From Somniosus microcephalus (taxonomy: Eukaryota): a stretch of DNA of 64,000 bases. The notes under the pieces are model-generated. The model saw only the letters and a program-made list of their open reading frames with translations, was not told the DNA's origin and searched no databases. This document shows, one piece after another, positions 14,427-59,956 of the stretch. Each line of letters starts with the position of its first letter. Position 1 is the stretch's first letter. The position numbers and the translations under genes are program-made. The stretch is from contig CM126232.1 of assembly GCA_052327205.1 (NCBI GenBank), positions 25,420,001-25,484,000 of the forward strand, given 5' to 3'.

Positions 14427-14609
14427 CTTGTATTCGAAGCAGGATATGCAGAGGTACAGCAAGTCTAGCAGTCGGTTTAGCTGGAAAACCGACAGGTCCG
14501 TGAACCACTTCTGCAGGATCTCCTCATCGGCGTTCTTCAGGATCCAGAGGAAACAGATGAGAAGGATGCGACTTGACTCAGCTGACAGGGTGGCATACTG
14601 CCGGCTGGG
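14427..14609 (-). CDS. DOCK6: DOCK6 exon [28 protein letters not shown]...[15 protein letters not shown]
   Basis: 183 nt, tag/gtaagc. Confidence 0.95.
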
Positions 14610-15429
14610 CTACAAAGGCAAGGAGCTTGCATTACAACTCACCCGGCTTCAGTACCTATTACATCAGAGTTCGGGAGCAATGTCTGCAGTTGGGCAAGTG
14701 GTACAGACCTATTTCAGAAGGGTTAGTATCACTTGATTCACCTGAGGTCAGAGAGGCTGGCTGAAATAGAAAACTTTTTCACTTAAAATAGTTTCTCCCC
14801 CTCAAGCAAAAATCAGCTAGCACCAATTCTTATTATATGTGGCATTGGTAAGCTAATATCCAGGGGTGGCATGGTAGCACAGAAGGTTGGTACCATGATA
14901 CCATGGAGTAGTAGGACAACGTTTCTACTGTTACAATGCCCTGTATGGCGGGTTTCCAATCTCACCTGCTGTCAGGAGAAGGGTGGGGCCAAGAACAATA
15001 TAAATATGGATGAGGAAGGTAATTCGGTCCCGCATCCATGTAGAAAAATCAACACTTCCCCCATTACAGAATCCAGGGGTTCGTCAACTGATTCCAGGTG
15101 TTTTGCCTCCATTGCCCTACCCAGAAGCTCATTCCTTGTGTCAATCACCCTGAAGAAATTCCTGGACTGGTTCAAAATTTCTCTTCTAACCAATCAAAGG
15201 GGAATCTTCGCACGTTTTACTAGCGTCACTCAAACAAAACCTTCACAACTGCAGGGTGACAGGAGGTTGGTGGTGGACCGGTCAGGCTGCTCAGCAGGGG
15301 AATGGTGTGCAGGGAGAATAATAAAAGGCAGTGGAGGGAGGGAAATATTCGCGTGAAACCTGATTCGATTTTTCTGCCTCTTTTCAGCAAAGATTTAATT
15401 CTAACAGTTTTTACAGGCAGTTCTCAGTA

Positions 15430-20470: not shown

Positions 20471-20530
20471 TGCCACTCTGCTCAAACCTATTAATGGGGT
20501 TTGAAGGGGCACCGTCAAGAAGGTGCTTAC

Positions 20531-20701
20531 CTGGGAGGTAGCTGAGGAGACCGATGGGGACGGGGATGCAGGGGGGGACAGTGTGCTGCACGGGAGATTC
20601 AGCGTGATGTAGTGCTCGTGGCTGCAGATAATGCGAATGAAGTCCAGTCGTAGAGCAATGAGGGCATTTGGGTTCTGCGCAGTCTGCAGTTTAATACTGA
20701 C
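20531..20701 (-). CDS. DOCK6: DOCK6 exon [11 protein letters not shown]...[32 protein letters not shown]
   Basis: 171 nt, aag/gtaagc. Confidence 0.95.
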
Positions 20702-37392: not shown

Positions 37393-37950
37393 TCTACAGG
37401 AACATACACACAGTGTTGCCACACATACAGCAGTCTGCGGGGAGAGTAATCTACAGGAACATACACACAGCGTTGCCACACATACAGCAGTCTGCAGGGA
37501 GAGTAATCTACAGGAACATACACACAGCGTTGCCACACATACAGCAGTCTGTGGGGAGAGTAATCTACAGGAACATACACAGCGTTGTCACACATACAGC
37601 AGTCTGTGGGGAGAGTAATCTACAGGAACATACACAGCGTTGTCACACATACAGCAGTCTGTAGGGAGAGTAATCTACAGGAACATACACACAGCGTTGC
37701 CACACATACAGCAGTCTGTGGGGAGAGTAATCTACAGGAACATACACAGCGTTGTCACACATACAGCAGTCTGTAGGGAGAGTAATCTACAGGAACATAC
37801 ACACAGCGTTGCCACACATACAGCAGTCTGTGGGGAGAGTAATCTACAGGAACATACACAGCGTTGTCACACATACAGCAGTCTGTAGGGAGAGTAATCT
37901 ACAGGAACATACACAGTGTTGTCTGTAGGGTCAGTAATCTCCAGGAACAC
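37393..37950. repeat. Minisatellite, 55/57-bp units (ggagagtaatctacaggaacatacacag..)
   Basis: About 10 units, decaying further to about 38160. Confidence 0.95.
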
Positions 37951-38197
37951 ACCATTAACAGCAGGATCTCTCTCCCTCACACACACACACACACACACAA
38001 GACCTATAGAATCAGTAATCTACTGGGGTAAGCACATTAAGCCGCCTGCAATCACTGAGTGATACTTGCAGTAATCGGCAGGAGCATACAGACACACGGC
38101 ATTATCTGTAGAATCGATAATGTAGAGGGGCGAACACATTGATGTCTGTATCGGTAATCTCGGTTTAGAGTTCCACTGCGTAAGCATTTGGACTTAC

Positions 38198-46140: not shown

Positions 46141-46551
46141 GTGCCAGTTATCCTTTTGTAACCCCCCAGAAAGACCTTTATCATGTGTGATCGTGGACAC
46201 TGAATGTTGACGGACTGTTCAACTGTGGGGGTCATCACAGCTGACCCACTCCTGCCTTCCACACATATGCACTTACAACAAGGGTCACTGGATAATGAGG
46301 CTCAGGTCAATTTTCCCTTCACTAACCCAGGGAGCGCTGCTCTCAACTGGAGTGGCCCATGCTGCCACCTTGGCTGAGATCAGCTGACTCTGTAGGGCCT
46401 GGGATCAAACCCAGCACCTCCCTTGTTTGTACGGCTCACCCTATTCACTCAGCCAAGGTGTGAGTATTTTTTTTGTTGAGAATACCAGGTGAAGGGTCAA
46501 GGCCAAGTGCAAGGGTCAAGGCCAAGTGCAAGAAAACAATAATGCAGGGAG

Positions 46552-47790
46552 AAGGAAGGGCAGGTACTTAGGAGAAGTGATGGGGAAGGTAGGAGGGGCG
46601 ATGGGGTAGGTAGGTAGGAGGGCGATGGGGAAGGTAGGTGGGGGGGGGTGATGGGGAAGGTAGGTAGGGGGGGCGATGGGGAAGGGAGGTAGGAGGGGCG
46701 ATGGGGAAGGGAGGTGGGAGGGGCGATGGGAAGGGTGGAGGGAGGGCGATGGGAAGGGAGGAGGGGCGTTGGGGAAGGGAGGGAGGAGGGGCGATGGGGA
46801 AGGGAGGGAGGAGGGGCGATGGGGAAGGGAGGGAGGAGGGGCGATGGGGAAGGGAGGGAGGAGGGGCGATGGGGAAGGGAGGGAGGAGGGGCGATGGGGA
46901 AGGGAGGGAGGAGGGGCGATGGGGAAGGGAGGGAGGAGGGGCGATGGGGAAGGGAGGGAGGAGGGGCGATGGGGAAGGGAGGGAGGAGGGGCGATGGGGA
47001 AGGGAGGGAGGAGGGGCGATGGGGTAGGGAGGGAGGAGGGGCGATGGGGAAGGGAGGGAGGGGGGGCGATGGGGAAGGGAGGGAGGAGGGGCGATGGGGA
47101 AGGGAGGGAGGAGGGGCGATGGGGAAGGGAGGGAGGAGGGGCGATGGGGAAGGGAGGGAGGAGGGGCGATGGGGAAGGGAGGGAGGAGGGGCGATGGGGA
47201 AGGGAGGGAGGAGGGGCGATGGGGAAGGGAGGGAGGAGGGGCGATGGGGAAGGGAGGAGGGGCGATGGGGAAGGGAGGAGGGGCGATGGGGAAGGGAGGA
47301 GGGGCGATGGGGAAGGGAGGCGGGGCGATGGGGAAGGGAGGCGGGGCGATGGGGAAGGGAGGCGGGGCGATGGGGAAGGGAGGAGGGGCGATGGGGAAGG
47401 GAGGAGGGGCGATGGGGAAGGGAGGAGGGGCGATGGGGAAGGGAGGAGGGGCGATGGGGAAGGGAGGAGGGGCGATGGGGAAGGGAGGAGGGGCGATGGG
47501 GAAGGGAGGAGGGGCGATGGGGAAGGGAGATGGGGCGATGGGGAAGGGAGGTGGGAGGGGCGATGGGGAAGGGAGGAGGGGCGATGGGGAAGGGAGGAGG
47601 GGCGATGGGGAAGGGAGGAGGGGTGATGGGGAAGGGAGGCGGGGCGATGGGGTAGGTAGGCGGGGCGATGGGGAAGGGAGGTCGGGGGGGCGATGGGGTA
47701 GGTAGGTAGGAGGGGCGATGGGGAAGGTAGGTAGGAGGGGTGATGGGGAAGGTAGGAGGGAGGGGAGAGGCAGGTAGGAGAGTGAGGGGT
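46552..47790. repeat. Purine-rich minisatellite, 25-bp then 21-bp units (ggggaaggg[aggg]aggaggggcgat)
   Basis: Direct inspection; explains the Pro-rich and Gly/Arg-rich ORFs. Confidence 0.97.
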
Positions 47791-47962
47791 AGGAGCGAGC
47801 AGGAAGGTTGCCATATTTGGTGCTTAGGAGGATCAAAATAACAAGAGTTCAGAGGGGCACTATCCACAGTGTGTCATCAAAATAGCAACAAGTTAGCAGA
47901 GAAGGTGTGGGCGTGCCATTCCAAATCAGAATACACAGGGGCTGGGAATGTTAATAGACCAT

Positions 47963-49076: not shown

Positions 49077-49350
49077 GAATCATACAGCACAGAAGGCGGC
49101 CATTTGGTCCACCGTGCCTGTGCCAGCACTTTGAGAAAGAGCTCTCCAATTAGTCCCACTCCCCTGCTCTGTCCCCATAGTCCGACAAATGTTTCCCCTT
49201 CAAGTATTTATCCAATTTCCTTTTGAAAGTTACTATTGAATCTGCTTCCAGCACCCTTTCAGGGAGTGCATTCCAGATCATAAGTACTCGCTGTGCAAAC
49301 AAATGCTTCCTCATGTCGCCTCTGGTTCTTTTGCTAATTACCTTGAGTCT
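49077..49350 (-). mobile_element. CR1 LINE 3' end
   Basis: MRKHLFAQRVLMIWNALPERV..FKRKLDKYLK. Confidence 0.85.
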
Positions 49351-49883
49351 GCTTTCAATTCCAGGTGAAATTACTCCCAGAAGAGGCATGGTTCACTTCT
49401 TGATACAATCCAGAGTTTGTACTTCTGCCATGTTTGTGCATTCCGCCTGAAGCTAAATAAACATTGGGAGCAGAGATGGTTCCAGGTGCTGCTCCCAGCT
49501 GAGTTTACTGTGTTACAAGGGCCAGTTTGAGGGGCAATAAAACAATAACAGCTCCGAATGGCCTATACGGGTTACACAGCCTTGTCGATGGCAAGAGTAT
49601 ATAATAACGGTAATCTTCATTCAGGGGATTTTGTGACAGTACTGCCTTAGAACCTCTTCAACAACATTGTTGTAAAAGATCACAGTGGTCTGGCATTTAC
49701 TCTCCTGCTCCCTTGGACACTGAAAATTGCCTGCATTTACAAACGCTGTGTCTGCTCAGCCAGATTGTCTTGCGAGCTAGAAATTTCTGGCCAAAATGCC
49801 TCTTTCAAAAGGGTGCTGAGTTTTGCCAGAGTGGTTTGGAGAGCTTACAGGGTTGCAGGCTCGCCCAAGCAAGGTGCACGTAC

Positions 49884-52626: not shown

Positions 52627-53958
52627 CTAAGTGAGTGGGGTACAAGATTAAAGATTAGAGACTGTATAGTTGGCACCGGCACAGGGCAACCACTCCAACT
52701 CGGGAGCTCTCAGGCTGCACTACTGCACTCAAATGTCCATCATCGTCAGGAGGGTTGGAGGAAGTGACTGTGGACAACAGGCTCAAATTGAAGTGATTCA
52801 CAAACTGAGGTGAACCCCTGCTTCGAAATGCAGTTTATTCCCTCAAACCGTCAGATCGCAGGGAAACTCAACTCCGTGCTTGGGTCAAATGGAGAAGAGT
52901 GGATCGGTTCTCCAGCAGGCACAGTGTACCGAGCTTTCCTAGGGCCAGGCATCTCGAGATCGATTCCCAGACCTATCGGAGATAGCCACCCCCATTGCAA
53001 AGAATGGGGTCACTCCAGGGAGCACGGGGCTCCTCCCAGTCACCCAAGCAGCCGGAAAAAAGGAAGCCAGACACACGAGACTGCTGTAAAAAAAATATGC
53101 TTTTTCTTCAAACAAGCAAGCAATATTATTAATATAGAATACTGAATGCACAGCGGGGAATAAATACTTGAATCAGAACTTACTTCCCATGGACTTAATT
53201 TCTCTTTTAAGCAATGATAAAACGCACTGGAGTACGGTATATTGTAATTGCAACTTGTCACAAGGCTTTTAATTATTCATTGTCCTTAATTGTAACCTGC
53301 AGCATGATTGCAAGTACATTACGGTGTTCAGTTCAACCTATTCTGAGCTTAGTATCTCTGTGGGTTTGGATGGTGTCTGCCACTGTTCAGTGAGGAGCTA
53401 ATCCCCCTCATCCCACCTGCTGTCTCATGCATGACTCGGGAGGCCCGAGGCTGCTTCACAGTGATGGGGATATAAAACAGGGATAAAATGTCTGGCCGCT
53501 CTTAGGGGCTGAATTGCAAGTTAAATGTAAACAGTACGTTGTAATTTGTAATGATAGTGTTAAAACTATAGAGCCCATAGCTTTAATAGGACTTTCACTA
53601 TTGCTGCGAGTGCTGGGATAGGTCCAGCTCCACAGCCTTATCTTGTTTCTCTGACTTAGTAGTAAGCAAAAGCAAGAGAAATGCCAGGGAATCCCAGCAG
53701 GATCATCAGTAGAAAGCTTATGGTCCCTTAACATCCAGTATTTCTGACAAGAATCCAAAAGGAAATGTTAATTTGGGAATAGCTCCAAGTAGATTTAATT
53801 CCCAAGTTCAACAGATTAAGTGATAAACACCACCCAATATTTAATTAACACGAGAGACCAACATTAAGGCCTTTGTTATAGTACCACACCTGAAAAACTC
53901 CCCTTTGGGGTTCTGTACTGACTCTCATGGACCAATTTATTGATTCCCTGTTACTTAC

Positions 53959-54097
53959 TGTGTAGCCAACAGGTGTCTCCAGTGCTGCACTCGGCTTCTG
54001 CTGACAGCTGATGTGGTAGAAGGTGAAGAGCAGGTGATGGTTATCGGTCAGGTTAGCTGGGACCTTCATTTTTATTTCCTCATAAAACTCTGGCGAT
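53959..54097 (-). CDS. DOCK6: DOCK6 exon [46 protein letters not shown]
   Basis: 139 nt, cag/gtaagt, hallmark DHR-1 [11 protein letters not shown]. Confidence 0.96.
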
Positions 54098-56350: not shown

Positions 56351-58041
56351 AAACTATAGCGACAGGGACTGGGGTGGAGTAAGTAGGGGCTGGGTTCCTG
56401 CTCCTGATCACGATACAGTGACAAATACTGGAAAGTCTATGTTGGGCAAAGACAGGACGGGACTCGGTTGTGAGGCCTCCCATGGTCAAATAGGATGACA
56501 ACACTCACTGCCTAGGCTCATGTGTACAGAACAAACACACTTGGATAGAGGTTACGGTGCTGCTGGTGACCACTGAAGTGTACCCCAGTTAAGAGCCAGC
56601 ATCTTCAGCGGAAGAGACTAAAATGGAAGGAACAAATCCTGACCTGTACAAGAACAGAGATTTCAGTGCAGACGGACTATCCAATATGGACATTAAGCTC
56701 TTTCAAAAACTGAGGTGGCACACTGACTTCCACTAGTAAATGTATGATAATAAGGGTGATCGGTTAAGTGGATGCATTTGTTGTCTCACCCACACAGCCA
56801 TCTACAATCCAGTATCGTGTGGGAGTAAGCAGCTACTAAAAGCTCCTGTAATTGCCTCAACTATCAATTATTGTGTACTTTAATATATTTTGGTACTACA
56901 GCAAGCACAATGCGTACTTCTGTTAAGTATCTATTCTTCAAAACTGCACAAATGCAGTGGAAAATCAGTTATATAACTCCCAGTATCAAGTGGTGTCAGA
57001 CTGGAATGTGTGTGAAAGGAACATATTGACTCTCAGTAGATGTGGGAGATTCGCAGACTTGGACTTGGTGTTCGACACAAAAGGAAAAAATCATTCCCCA
57101 AAACATACTTCAATCTCCATAAAATCTAACCCATTCCAGGCAAACACTTTAATCTCCATAAAATCCAACCCATTCATACAAACACTGTCTCTCCCATTAT
57201 CTGGGACTAGCCCTCGCTCTAAACAGCATACAACAAATAAGTGATCTCTCACACCTCCATCGCAACCTTTCTTGCCTTTGTTTTATTGATATTACTATGT
57301 TTGTTGATCTTTGAAACTTTCCTCTCTTTCTTCTGAGCTGTAGATACCCCACGCCACACACTCCTCCTCCTCCTCCTCCCTGTCTTCAAATCATGACTTT
57401 ATGCACTGTCCCGTACGTATTCTTTCCCAGCACCTCAAAGCTTCAGGGCAGTACTGAGGCAGCGTTGCAGTGTTGGAACTGCATTATCCTTTAGATTAGG
57501 CATTAAACCAAAGCCCCGTCCCCCTGTTTGTGGCGACATTAAAGATTCCCTGACACTATTCTAAGGGCAGGGAGTTTCTCACTGCATCCTGACGACATCC
57601 CTCCTTCAACTAACACCAACAAAAACAGATTCATTGCTCACTCATCACCTTGCTATCTGTGGGCACCTTGCTGGCGTGCAAAATGTTATACGGTCTAAAG
57701 CAGCAGCCAATGACTCTACTTCAAATTAATGAATTGCACATAAAGCAGTCTGGGGACATTTGTGAGACCAGACACTAAAGAAATGAAAGCTTTTCTTCTT
57801 CCTCCAGAGTCTTCTGGCTTTTGGAACCGAACTTTGATATCATCAATTCCTGATTTACCTCATAATATCCTTTAGCTGTGGTGGTGTTCTCTATTGTGGC
57901 CCCTTCCCTTCTATAATAAGTAAGAACTGCATTGCTTTGTGCGATATGTGCATCACCAGTACGGCTAAACAGGTATGGCACTAGCATATGCTTGAGGAAC
58001 AACAGTGGCTGCACTCCACATTGATGTAAGATGTTTCTCAC

Positions 58042-58159
58042 CGGCATGGCACTGTTGGGGTCCTCTCCGCCATGAACTGGACTTTCACTGTATATATCCG
58101 CACAGACCCCTGGCGGCTGCTGAAGTTCAAACTCTTGTGGGTAGACGTAGAGCAGATTC
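58042..58159 (-). CDS. DOCK6: DOCK6 exon, start of DHR-1/C2 (NLLYVYPQ...GEDPNSAMP); contains compensating frameshift pair
   Basis: 118 nt, ag/gtgaga; ends are in frame while the conserved middle SLNFSSRQGSVR..TVKVQFM lies in a shifted frame. Confidence 0.9.
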
Positions 58160-58883
58160 CTAAGAGGAACAATGAGAGTGGGTCAGCGCAGACAACACAC
58201 ATTCAAAATACAGCCACAAGCCAGGCTCATAGTGGCTGGCTGTCCTGATGTACTAACTCATTTACTTGTCTACCAAATAAATGGATGAAAGTGGACCTCA
58301 GTAATAGAGGTGGGGGGGGGGGGGGGGGGGATTCCCATCTATTGTGACATCTCTTCAGACTGGGATATGTTACCTGTAACAGAAAGTAAAAGTGTTCATT
58401 TACCTTCCTTCAGTCTCCTGCATCATACAAAATCATCAAACGAACCTGCATCGGTACAGCATCTTTCACATCCTCAGAATGCCCCAAAGCGCTTCACAGC
58501 CGATTAATTACTTCTGAAGTGCAGCCACTGTTGTTTTTTTTAATCTAATATAGCAGCCAATTTGCACACAACAATGTCCCACAAACAGCACCAACCAGTT
58601 AATCTGTTTTTGGTGGTGTTGATTGAAGGACACGCAGAGAATTCCCTGCTCTTGTACAAACAGTGCCATGGGATCTTTAATATTCCACTGAACAAGCAGA
58701 TGGGGCCTTGGTTTCATGTCTCATCCAGAAGACAGCGCCTTCGACAATGCAGTATTGCAGAGCGTGGGCACACAAACTTCTCCTGGGTCTCTGCACTCGG
58801 TGGGATTGATGATAGGTTAAAGTTTCAGATGGGACCTATTGCCCGGATAGCTATTGACCTGCTGCATATTTCCAGCATTTCAC

Positions 58884-59370
58884 AGAATCATAGAATGGTT
58901 ACAGCACAGGAGGCCGTCATTCGGCCCGTCAAGCCCGTGCCAGCTCGCTGCAAGAGCACTTCAGCTAGTCCCACTCCCCCTGCACAGTTTTTTCCTTCAG
59001 GTACTTATCCATTTCCCTTTTGAAAGCCACAATTGAATCTGCCTCCACCACCCTTTCAGGCAATGCATTCCAGATCCTAACCACTCGCTGCGTAAAAAAG
59101 TTTTCCCTCATGTCGCCTTTGGTTCTTCTACCAATCACCTTAAATCTGTGTCCTCTGGTTCTCTCTATCTACGCCGTCTAGACCCTTCATGATTTTGAAC
59201 ACCTTTATCAAATCTCTTCTCAACCTTCTCTGCTCTAAGAAGAATAACCCCAGCTTCTCCAGTCTATCCACGTAACTGAAGTCCCGCATCCCTGGAACCA
59301 TTCTTGTAAATCTTTTCTGCATCCTCTCGAAGGCCTTCACATCCTTCCTAAAGAATTGGACACATTGTCT
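58884..59370 (-). mobile_element. CR1 LINE 3' fragment
   Basis: RKDVKAFERMQKRFTRMVPGMRDFSYVDRLEKLGLF. Confidence 0.9.
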
Positions 59371-59956
59371 CTTCTTAGAGAGAACTTGCATTTATATAAT
59401 GCCTCACATCCTCAGGACATCCCAAAGGGCTTCATGGCCAATGAATTGCTTTTGAAGTGTAGTCACTGTTGTCTTAGACAAACATGGCAGCCAATCTGCA
59501 CACAGGAAGGTCCCATAATGTGAGAAATGATCAGTTAACCTGTGTGTTTGACGGTGGTAATTGAGGGATATCTGTTGGCTAGGACACTGGGTGAACTCCC
59601 CTTCTCGCCTTTGAACGGTGCCTTGGCATCTTTCACATTCACGTCAAATGGTAGATGAAGCCTCAGTTTAACGTCTCATACAAAAGACGGCACGGCACCT
59701 CCGAGAGTGCAACGCTTCCTCAGTACTACAATTAATTGTCAGCCTAGATTGAGCTCAACCTTGAAGTGTGATTTGAACCCACAGCCTTCTGGCTCAGAGG
59801 CCAGAGTGCAACCATTGTGCCAAACTGACACTTGCCGTACTTTTTCCCCCCACCTGCAATGGAAGAGCAAGGCATTCGAGGAAAGCCTAGATTCTCTGTT
59901 TGTTCCCTGGCCTTGCTATGAATTTATCCAGATATCACAGCAAGTGAAAACACTCA

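What the first reader, a model, noticed from the sequence alone, without database searches (positions are those of the whole stretch)
58068..58136. Compensating +1/-1 frameshift pair inside the first DHR-1 (C2) exon of DOCK6
Seen: the 118-nt exon starts and ends in frame but reads NLLYVYPQ-EFELQQPPGVCADIYSESPVHG-GEDPNSAMP with no stop. The conserved DOCK6/7 peptide SLNFSSRQGSVR..TVKVQFM sits in the shifted frame, between an extra base near 58135 (CCA CAAG AGT) and a missing base near 58068 (ATG GC_ GGA). RIYT in place of RNIT (tatatat, 58091-97) suggests further local indels. It is the only such anomaly I saw in 28 exons. Inference: either a consensus error (favoured, since the old frame is almost undiverged) or a recent compensatory frameshift replacing 22 residues of the phosphoinositide-binding domain.
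Basis: partly seen in the sequence, partly recalled or inferred. Interest (0 to 1): 0.7.

Follow-up and report, generated by a model that had tools for sequence, protein, structure and literature searches.

The report
Assembly typos in shark DOCK6 exon
The odd frameshifted stretch in this DOCK6 gene is very likely a cluster of single-letter errors in the genome assembly, because every RNA read and genomic contig laid across it shows the ordinary, conserved reading frame.

Summary
The 118-nt minus-strand exon (58042-58159) of DOCK6 is open, and its middle 22 codons match a shark homolog at only 2 of 22 residues. It is the only one of 37 exon loci that switches frame. Reads from four public runs all disagree with the window. 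The extra base at 58135 is absent in 10 of 10 and 4 of 4 RNA reads and in both genomic contigs. A further +1/-1 pair lies at 58091-58096. Both contigs supply the missing base behind 58066, which no RNA read covers. With these four changes the segment matches the shark protein at 22 of 22. The contigs show more one-base indels in the flanking introns (58263, 58266, probably 57806) and no substitution in 595 bases. Six of seven are run-length slips, typical of long-read consensus error. Whether the runs include the assembled individual is unknown, which leaves about 2% for a private allele. No earlier scan note concerned this.

The parts
58042..58159 (-). Coding exon of DOCK6 at the start of the DHR-1 (C2) domain, 118 nt, ordinary in the reads
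   Evidence: AG/GT ends and length; homolog alignment; spliced RNA reads join it to the upstream exon in the neighbouring stretch L002
58135..58136 (.). Window has TT where reads have T: extra base, starts the apparent frameshift
   Evidence: Left out in 10 of 10 X21 reads (2 start sites), 4 of 4 X22 reads (2 start sites), and contigs of X1 and X2
58091..58097 (.). Second +1/-1 pair inside the AT stretch: one A of a run missing and one stray base (two equivalent notations)
   Evidence: 5 of 5 X21 reads and 2 of 2 X22 reads (1 start site each), contigs of X1 and X2; both notations give the same sequence
58066..58068 (.). Window has CC where contigs have CCC: missing base, ends the apparent frameshift
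   Evidence: Contigs of X1 (depth 4.2) and X2 (depth 14.1); no RNA read covers it
58261..58267 (.). Two further extra T's in short T runs of the upstream intron
   Evidence: Left out at 58263 and 58266 in contigs of X1 and X2; run lengths
57806..57806 (.). Probable seventh slip: one A missing in the downstream intron
   Evidence: Inferred: both contigs stop aligning at 57806, and the X2 loose end equals window 57777-57806, implying AA for A
58312..58330 (+). G19 run, longest homopolymer of the window; one base shorter in X1 and about 8 shorter in X2
   Evidence: gap bookkeeping (the X2 figure is inferred)

Best explanation
The window carries four single-base insertions and deletions in this exon that are absent from every RNA read and genomic contig covering them, so they are very likely errors in a short, poorly supported patch of the assembly consensus, and the animal likely makes an ordinary DOCK6 C2 domain. 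Shown: the differences between window and reads, their indel-only nature, and restoration of the conserved peptide. Inferred: a stretch of at least about 460 bases (57806-58267) was probably called from few noisy long reads and not corrected by polishing, so short runs were over- or under-counted by one base; two gains and two losses fell in the exon and cancelled by chance. The sequencing technology and depth behind the assembly are unknown.
For:: no read or contig among 4 runs supports the window at any of the exon sites it covers (58135: 10 of 10, 4 of 4 and both contigs; 58091-58096: 5 of 5, 2 of 2 and both contigs; 58066: both contigs). The two contigs span 57806-58400 in one piece with 0 substituted letters and 7 and 14 gap letters; six of seven single-base differences are one-base changes in run length, and three of seven lie in introns, where no frame selection acts; the read version matches the Scyliorhinus protein P0004 at 38 of 39 residues (window version 18 of 39), and 110 of 110 homologs with this segment are closer to it (mean 20.2 against 2.0 of 22); 36 of 37 exon loci are in one frame, so the gene is not decaying; one copy in the genome, so the reads are not from a duplicate held in the assembly; the RNA loose end matches the upstream exon exactly (29 bases). 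PMC7893821 (passages): DOCK6/7 have Ser, Arg, Arg at the positions of the DOCK8 lipid-binding residues R570, K576, R581; the window frame would put Glu, Pro, Ala there.
Against: The runs are coded, and it is not known whether any comes from the assembled individual or even the same species; two organism labels (A, B) both show 0 substitutions. RNA support rests on few independent molecules (1-2 start sites per run and site), and 58066 has DNA support only. Contigs drop rare variants, so a heterozygous allele in those samples could be hidden. The homolog set is redundant (mostly teleost isoforms; one named shark). The extent of the error patch was measured by reads only over 57800-58400.
Confidence: 0.97

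Rival explanations
1. A real, very recent compensatory-frameshift allele private to the sequenced individual, population or species, which would replace 22 residues of the phosphoinositide-binding loop.
For: The exon keeps its length, splice sites and an open frame. The runs laid may come from other individuals, so they cannot exclude a private haplotype. True pairs of compensatory frameshifts exist in vertebrates (PMC8935012, section 5).
Against: It needs seven separate one-base indels, three of them intronic, with no substitution in 595 bases: 1e-7 to 2e-4 if indels make up an assumed 10-30% of true variants. 0 of 4 runs carry it. All three predicted lipid-contact residues would be lost. In PMC8935012, only 5 of 468 vertebrate candidates survived filtering.
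Confidence: 0.02
2. The genome has the shifted sequence, and RNA editing or splicing restores the frame in the transcript.
For: RNA reads differ from the window at three of the four exon sites.
Against: The intron-spanning genomic contigs of X1 and X2 show the same corrections as the RNA, so DNA and RNA agree. No joint inside the exon was reported.
Confidence: 0.003
3. The window holds a decaying duplicate of DOCK6, and the reads come from an intact second copy.
For: Several indels in a coding exon can mark a pseudogene (general knowledge).
Against: One match only in the genome; 36 of 37 exon loci intact; contigs identical to the window at every aligned letter, introns included.
Confidence: 0.005

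Closest known systems
Residual indel (homopolymer-length) errors of long-read assemblies (PMC8812927 and PMC12007338, abstract starts seen in the listing; both concern small or bacterial genomes)
   Same: One-base changes in run length, no substitutions, a frameshift in a conserved gene, absent from accurate short reads
   Different: Here the errors cluster in one patch and cancel inside an exon, so they mimic a compensatory pair instead of giving a stop codon; the assembly's technology is not known
[quoted passage not shown]
   Same: Short indels of opposite effect in one exon, an open shifted segment between them, total length preserved
   Different: High-confidence pCFMs are shared by several species and backed by several databases or by mRNA or protein; this one is in a single assembly and is contradicted by mRNA and by DNA
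DOCK6, DOCK-C subfamily, DHR-1/C2 domain (PF14429; PDB 9vm2; DOCK8 DHR-1 7clx)
   Same: Read-supported exon peptide matches shark P0004 at 38 of 39 residues; another exon matches human DOCK6 at E 1e-28; a downstream exon hits PF14429 above its cut-off
   Different: Nothing in the read-supported sequence; DOCK6 against DOCK7 was not tested with a tree

Membership tests
True compensatory frameshift pair (pCFM) | Two or more short indels that restore the frame, with no stop between them | tested here: met
   Net zero over four indels, open frame in the window
True compensatory frameshift pair (pCFM) | Indels present in independent genomic data | tested here: not met
   Absent from contigs of X1 and X2
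True compensatory frameshift pair (pCFM) | Derived state present in mRNA or protein | tested here: not met
   0 of 10 and 0 of 4 RNA reads keep the base at 58135
True compensatory frameshift pair (pCFM) | Shared by more than one species | tested here: not met
   0 of 110 homologs with the segment resemble the window frame (at most 3 of 22 identical); both organism labels A and B lack it
True compensatory frameshift pair (pCFM) | Present in raw reads of the assembled individual | not testable with these tools
   Runs are coded; the source sample of the assembly is not known
Long-read consensus error | Differences from accurate reads are indels, not substitutions | tested here: met
   0 other letters, 7 and 14 gap letters over 595 bases
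Long-read consensus error | Indels sit mostly in homopolymer runs | tested here: met
   6 of 7 single-base differences change a run by one base; one of the seven (57806) is inferred from a loose end
Long-read consensus error | Indels fall in coding and non-coding DNA alike | tested here: met
   4 in the exon, 3 in the introns
Long-read consensus error | Low or poor long-read coverage at the site | not testable with these tools
   The assembly's own reads and quality values were not available
DOCK6 (DOCK-C GEF) | DHR-1/C2 domain (PF14429) | tested here: met
   Exon 53950-54096 scores 60.6 bits, cut-off 33.6; the two frames of the affected exon gave no Pfam hit on their own
DOCK6 (DOCK-C GEF) | Orthology to DOCK6 rather than DOCK7 | tested here: inconclusive
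   Best or only PDB hit is DOCK6 and most named homologs are called DOCK6, some DOCK7-like; no tree was built

The most novel reading that the evidence does not exclude
The sequenced shark carries a real, newly arisen DOCK6 haplotype in which a burst of small indels has swapped 22 residues of the DHR-1 lipid-binding loop for an alternative-frame peptide, removing all three predicted phosphoinositide contacts while keeping the rest of the protein in frame: a compensatory frameshift caught as a polymorphism.
Probability: 0.02. Interest if true: 0.6.

Novelty: not a real feature. Interest (0 to 1): 0.04.

Why it matters
As biology it very likely does not matter: the gene reads normally in RNA and DNA. 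As a caution it is useful. A patch of assembly indels can cancel inside an exon, pass every stop-codon check and be annotated as a divergent peptide, so single-assembly 'compensatory frameshifts' in this genome need a read check. Had it been real, it would have been a rare case of a conserved lipid-binding loop replaced in one step.

Tried and rejected
RNA editing or DNA/RNA difference: rejected, because genomic contigs carry the same corrections as the RNA. Duplicate or pseudogene: rejected. The G19 run at 58312-58330 as the sufficient cause: weak. It is the longest run in the window and lies 153 bases from the exon, but exons 40, 114 and 137 bases from other G or C runs of 10-16 bases are intact; PMC10519405 (abstract and outline only) reports raised indel errors at such motifs, not hundreds of bases away. 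Pfam scan of the two frames of the affected exon: no hit for either, uninformative. No indexed holder of the stretch was on record as RNA; the RNA came from two raw-read runs added by species label. A missing 18-residue piece of P0004 in the tblastn survey proved to be in frame at the end of the exon near 20528-20588. The paper search for 'compensatory frameshift' + 'sequencing errors' + 'vertebrates' gave one paper (CESAR, listing only). No search was made for a published report on this locus, so no claim of absence from print is made. The look-up of earlier findings showed 8 of 21 notes, none on this gene or on assembly errors. No structure was predicted, since the reads settle the question.

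Full report
What is in the window. The exon lies on the minus strand at 58042-58159, is 118 nt long and has ordinary AG and GT ends. Read in the frame set by the upstream exon it has no stop. That frame aligns to the DOCK8 DHR-1 structure (7clx) at its first 8 and last 9 residues but not between. The neighbouring frame aligns in the middle to human DOCK6 (9vm2, residues 562-589). A downstream exon hits Pfam DOCK-C2 at 60.6 bits (cut-off 33.6), and another exon matches DOCK6 at E 1e-28. The nearest named protein is from the catshark Scyliorhinus torazame (P0004). The 400 bases around the exon occur once in the 6.4-Gb genome. tblastn with seven homologs gives 28 exon loci in the window and 9 in the next 20 kb; 1 of these 37 needs two frames, and it is this exon.

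What reads show. Of 24 listed runs, four were laid on 57800-58400: two raw RNA-seq runs (X21, X22; 24% and 31% of each read) and the contigs of two runs with the largest word share (X1, label A; X2, label B). The X1 and X2 contigs run through exon and introns in one piece, so they are genomic. The base at 58135 is left out in 10 of 10 X21 reads, 4 of 4 X22 reads and both contigs. At 58091-58096, one base is put in and one left out in 5 of 5 X21 reads, 2 of 2 X22 reads and both contigs; X1 is written in a different but equivalent notation. A C is put in behind 58066 in both contigs, and no RNA read reaches that site. The RNA support comes from few molecules (1-2 start sites per run and site), but none supports the window. 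The RNA loose end behind 58161 matches, at 29 of 29 bases, the end of the upstream exon about 11.6 kb away, so these are spliced transcripts of this gene.

The restored frame. With the four read-supported changes the exon keeps its 118 nt and matches P0004 at 38 of 39 residues, against 18 of 39 for the window; in the 22-residue core the figures are 22 and 2. Of the 120 homologs listed (of 207 found), 110 contain this segment and 10 lack the anchor motif used to find it and were dropped. All 110 are closer to the read frame (mean 20.2 of 22, minimum 14) than to the window frame (mean 2.0, maximum 3). The set is redundant, mostly teleost isoforms with one named shark.

Why this is an error rather than an allele. 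Over 595 aligned bases the two contigs differ from the window by no substitution at all, only by gaps (7 in X1, 14 in X2). Besides the four exon indels there are two in the upstream intron (58263, 58266), a probable third at 57806 (inferred from a loose end) and a shorter G run at 58312. Six of the seven single-base differences lengthen or shorten a run by one base. Homopolymer-length slips are the commonest residual errors of long-read assemblies (PMC8812927, abstract start in the listing, for bacterial genomes). Seven true indels without a substitution would have a probability of 1e-7 to 2e-4 if indels are an assumed 10-30% of real variants. The apparent compensation is cheap: four random one-base slips cancel 6 times in 16 (my arithmetic), and 22 random codons are stop-free 35% of the time. 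The other 36 exon loci are intact, so the fault is a local patch (about 1e-5 under uniform scatter, with assumed coding lengths). That the patch arose from few noisy long reads left unpolished is inference. The neighbouring G19 run may have contributed, but exons 40-137 bases from other G or C runs are intact, so it is not a sufficient cause. How far the patch extends beyond 57800-58400 is not known.

Comparison with real cases. A survey of 100 vertebrate genomes found 468 candidate compensatory pairs, of which 15 were shared by several species and 5 passed all filters; the authors name sequencing, assembly and alignment errors as the source of noise (PMC8935012, section 5 and passages read). 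This case fails each of those filters that could be tested: it is in one assembly, absent from independent DNA, absent from mRNA and absent from homologs. Function also argues against a tolerated allele. In DOCK8, K576 and R581 are required for PI(4,5)P2 binding and R570 contributes; DOCK6 and DOCK7 have Ser, Arg, Arg at the positions of R570, K576, R581 (PMC7893821, passages). By the alignment these are exon positions 9, 15 and 20, which the reads give as Ser, Arg, Arg and the window as Glu, Pro, Ala. No supplements were read; none bears on the verdict.

Limits and verdict. The runs are coded, so it is unknown whether the assembled animal is among them, and contigs can hide a minor allele. 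A private haplotype is therefore not formally excluded; I put it at 2%. Editing (0.3%) and a decaying duplicate (0.5%) are contradicted directly. Verdict: a local assembly error in an ordinary DOCK6 gene (97%); not a real feature; interest 0.04.

Noticed in passing
window 58312-58330: G19 run, the longest homopolymer of the window; G18 in the X1 contig and about G11 in the X2 contig (inferred from gap counts), so either a length polymorphism or a further assembly error.
   Followed up: partly
window 57806, 58263, 58266: One-base indels in the introns flanking the exon, same in both contigs; the error patch is wider than the exon.
   Followed up: partly
window 46500-47870: About 1.3 kb of G-rich tandem repeat in an intron, open in all three minus-strand frames as Pro/Ser-rich low-complexity peptides of 426-458 residues and matching a G-quadruplex pattern; probably a minisatellite, not a gene.
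   Followed up: no
window 37425-37974: Intronic tandem repeat with at least six similar units seen in translation.
   Followed up: no
window 58968-59391 (minus strand): Broken reading frames resembling the 3' end of a CR1-type LINE reverse transcriptase, with a similar piece at 49153-49392; the label is recalled, not tested.
   Followed up: no
window 14427-14633: An exon matched by the gar protein P0086 but absent from the catshark model P0004; probably a gap in that gene model or a skipped exon.
   Followed up: no
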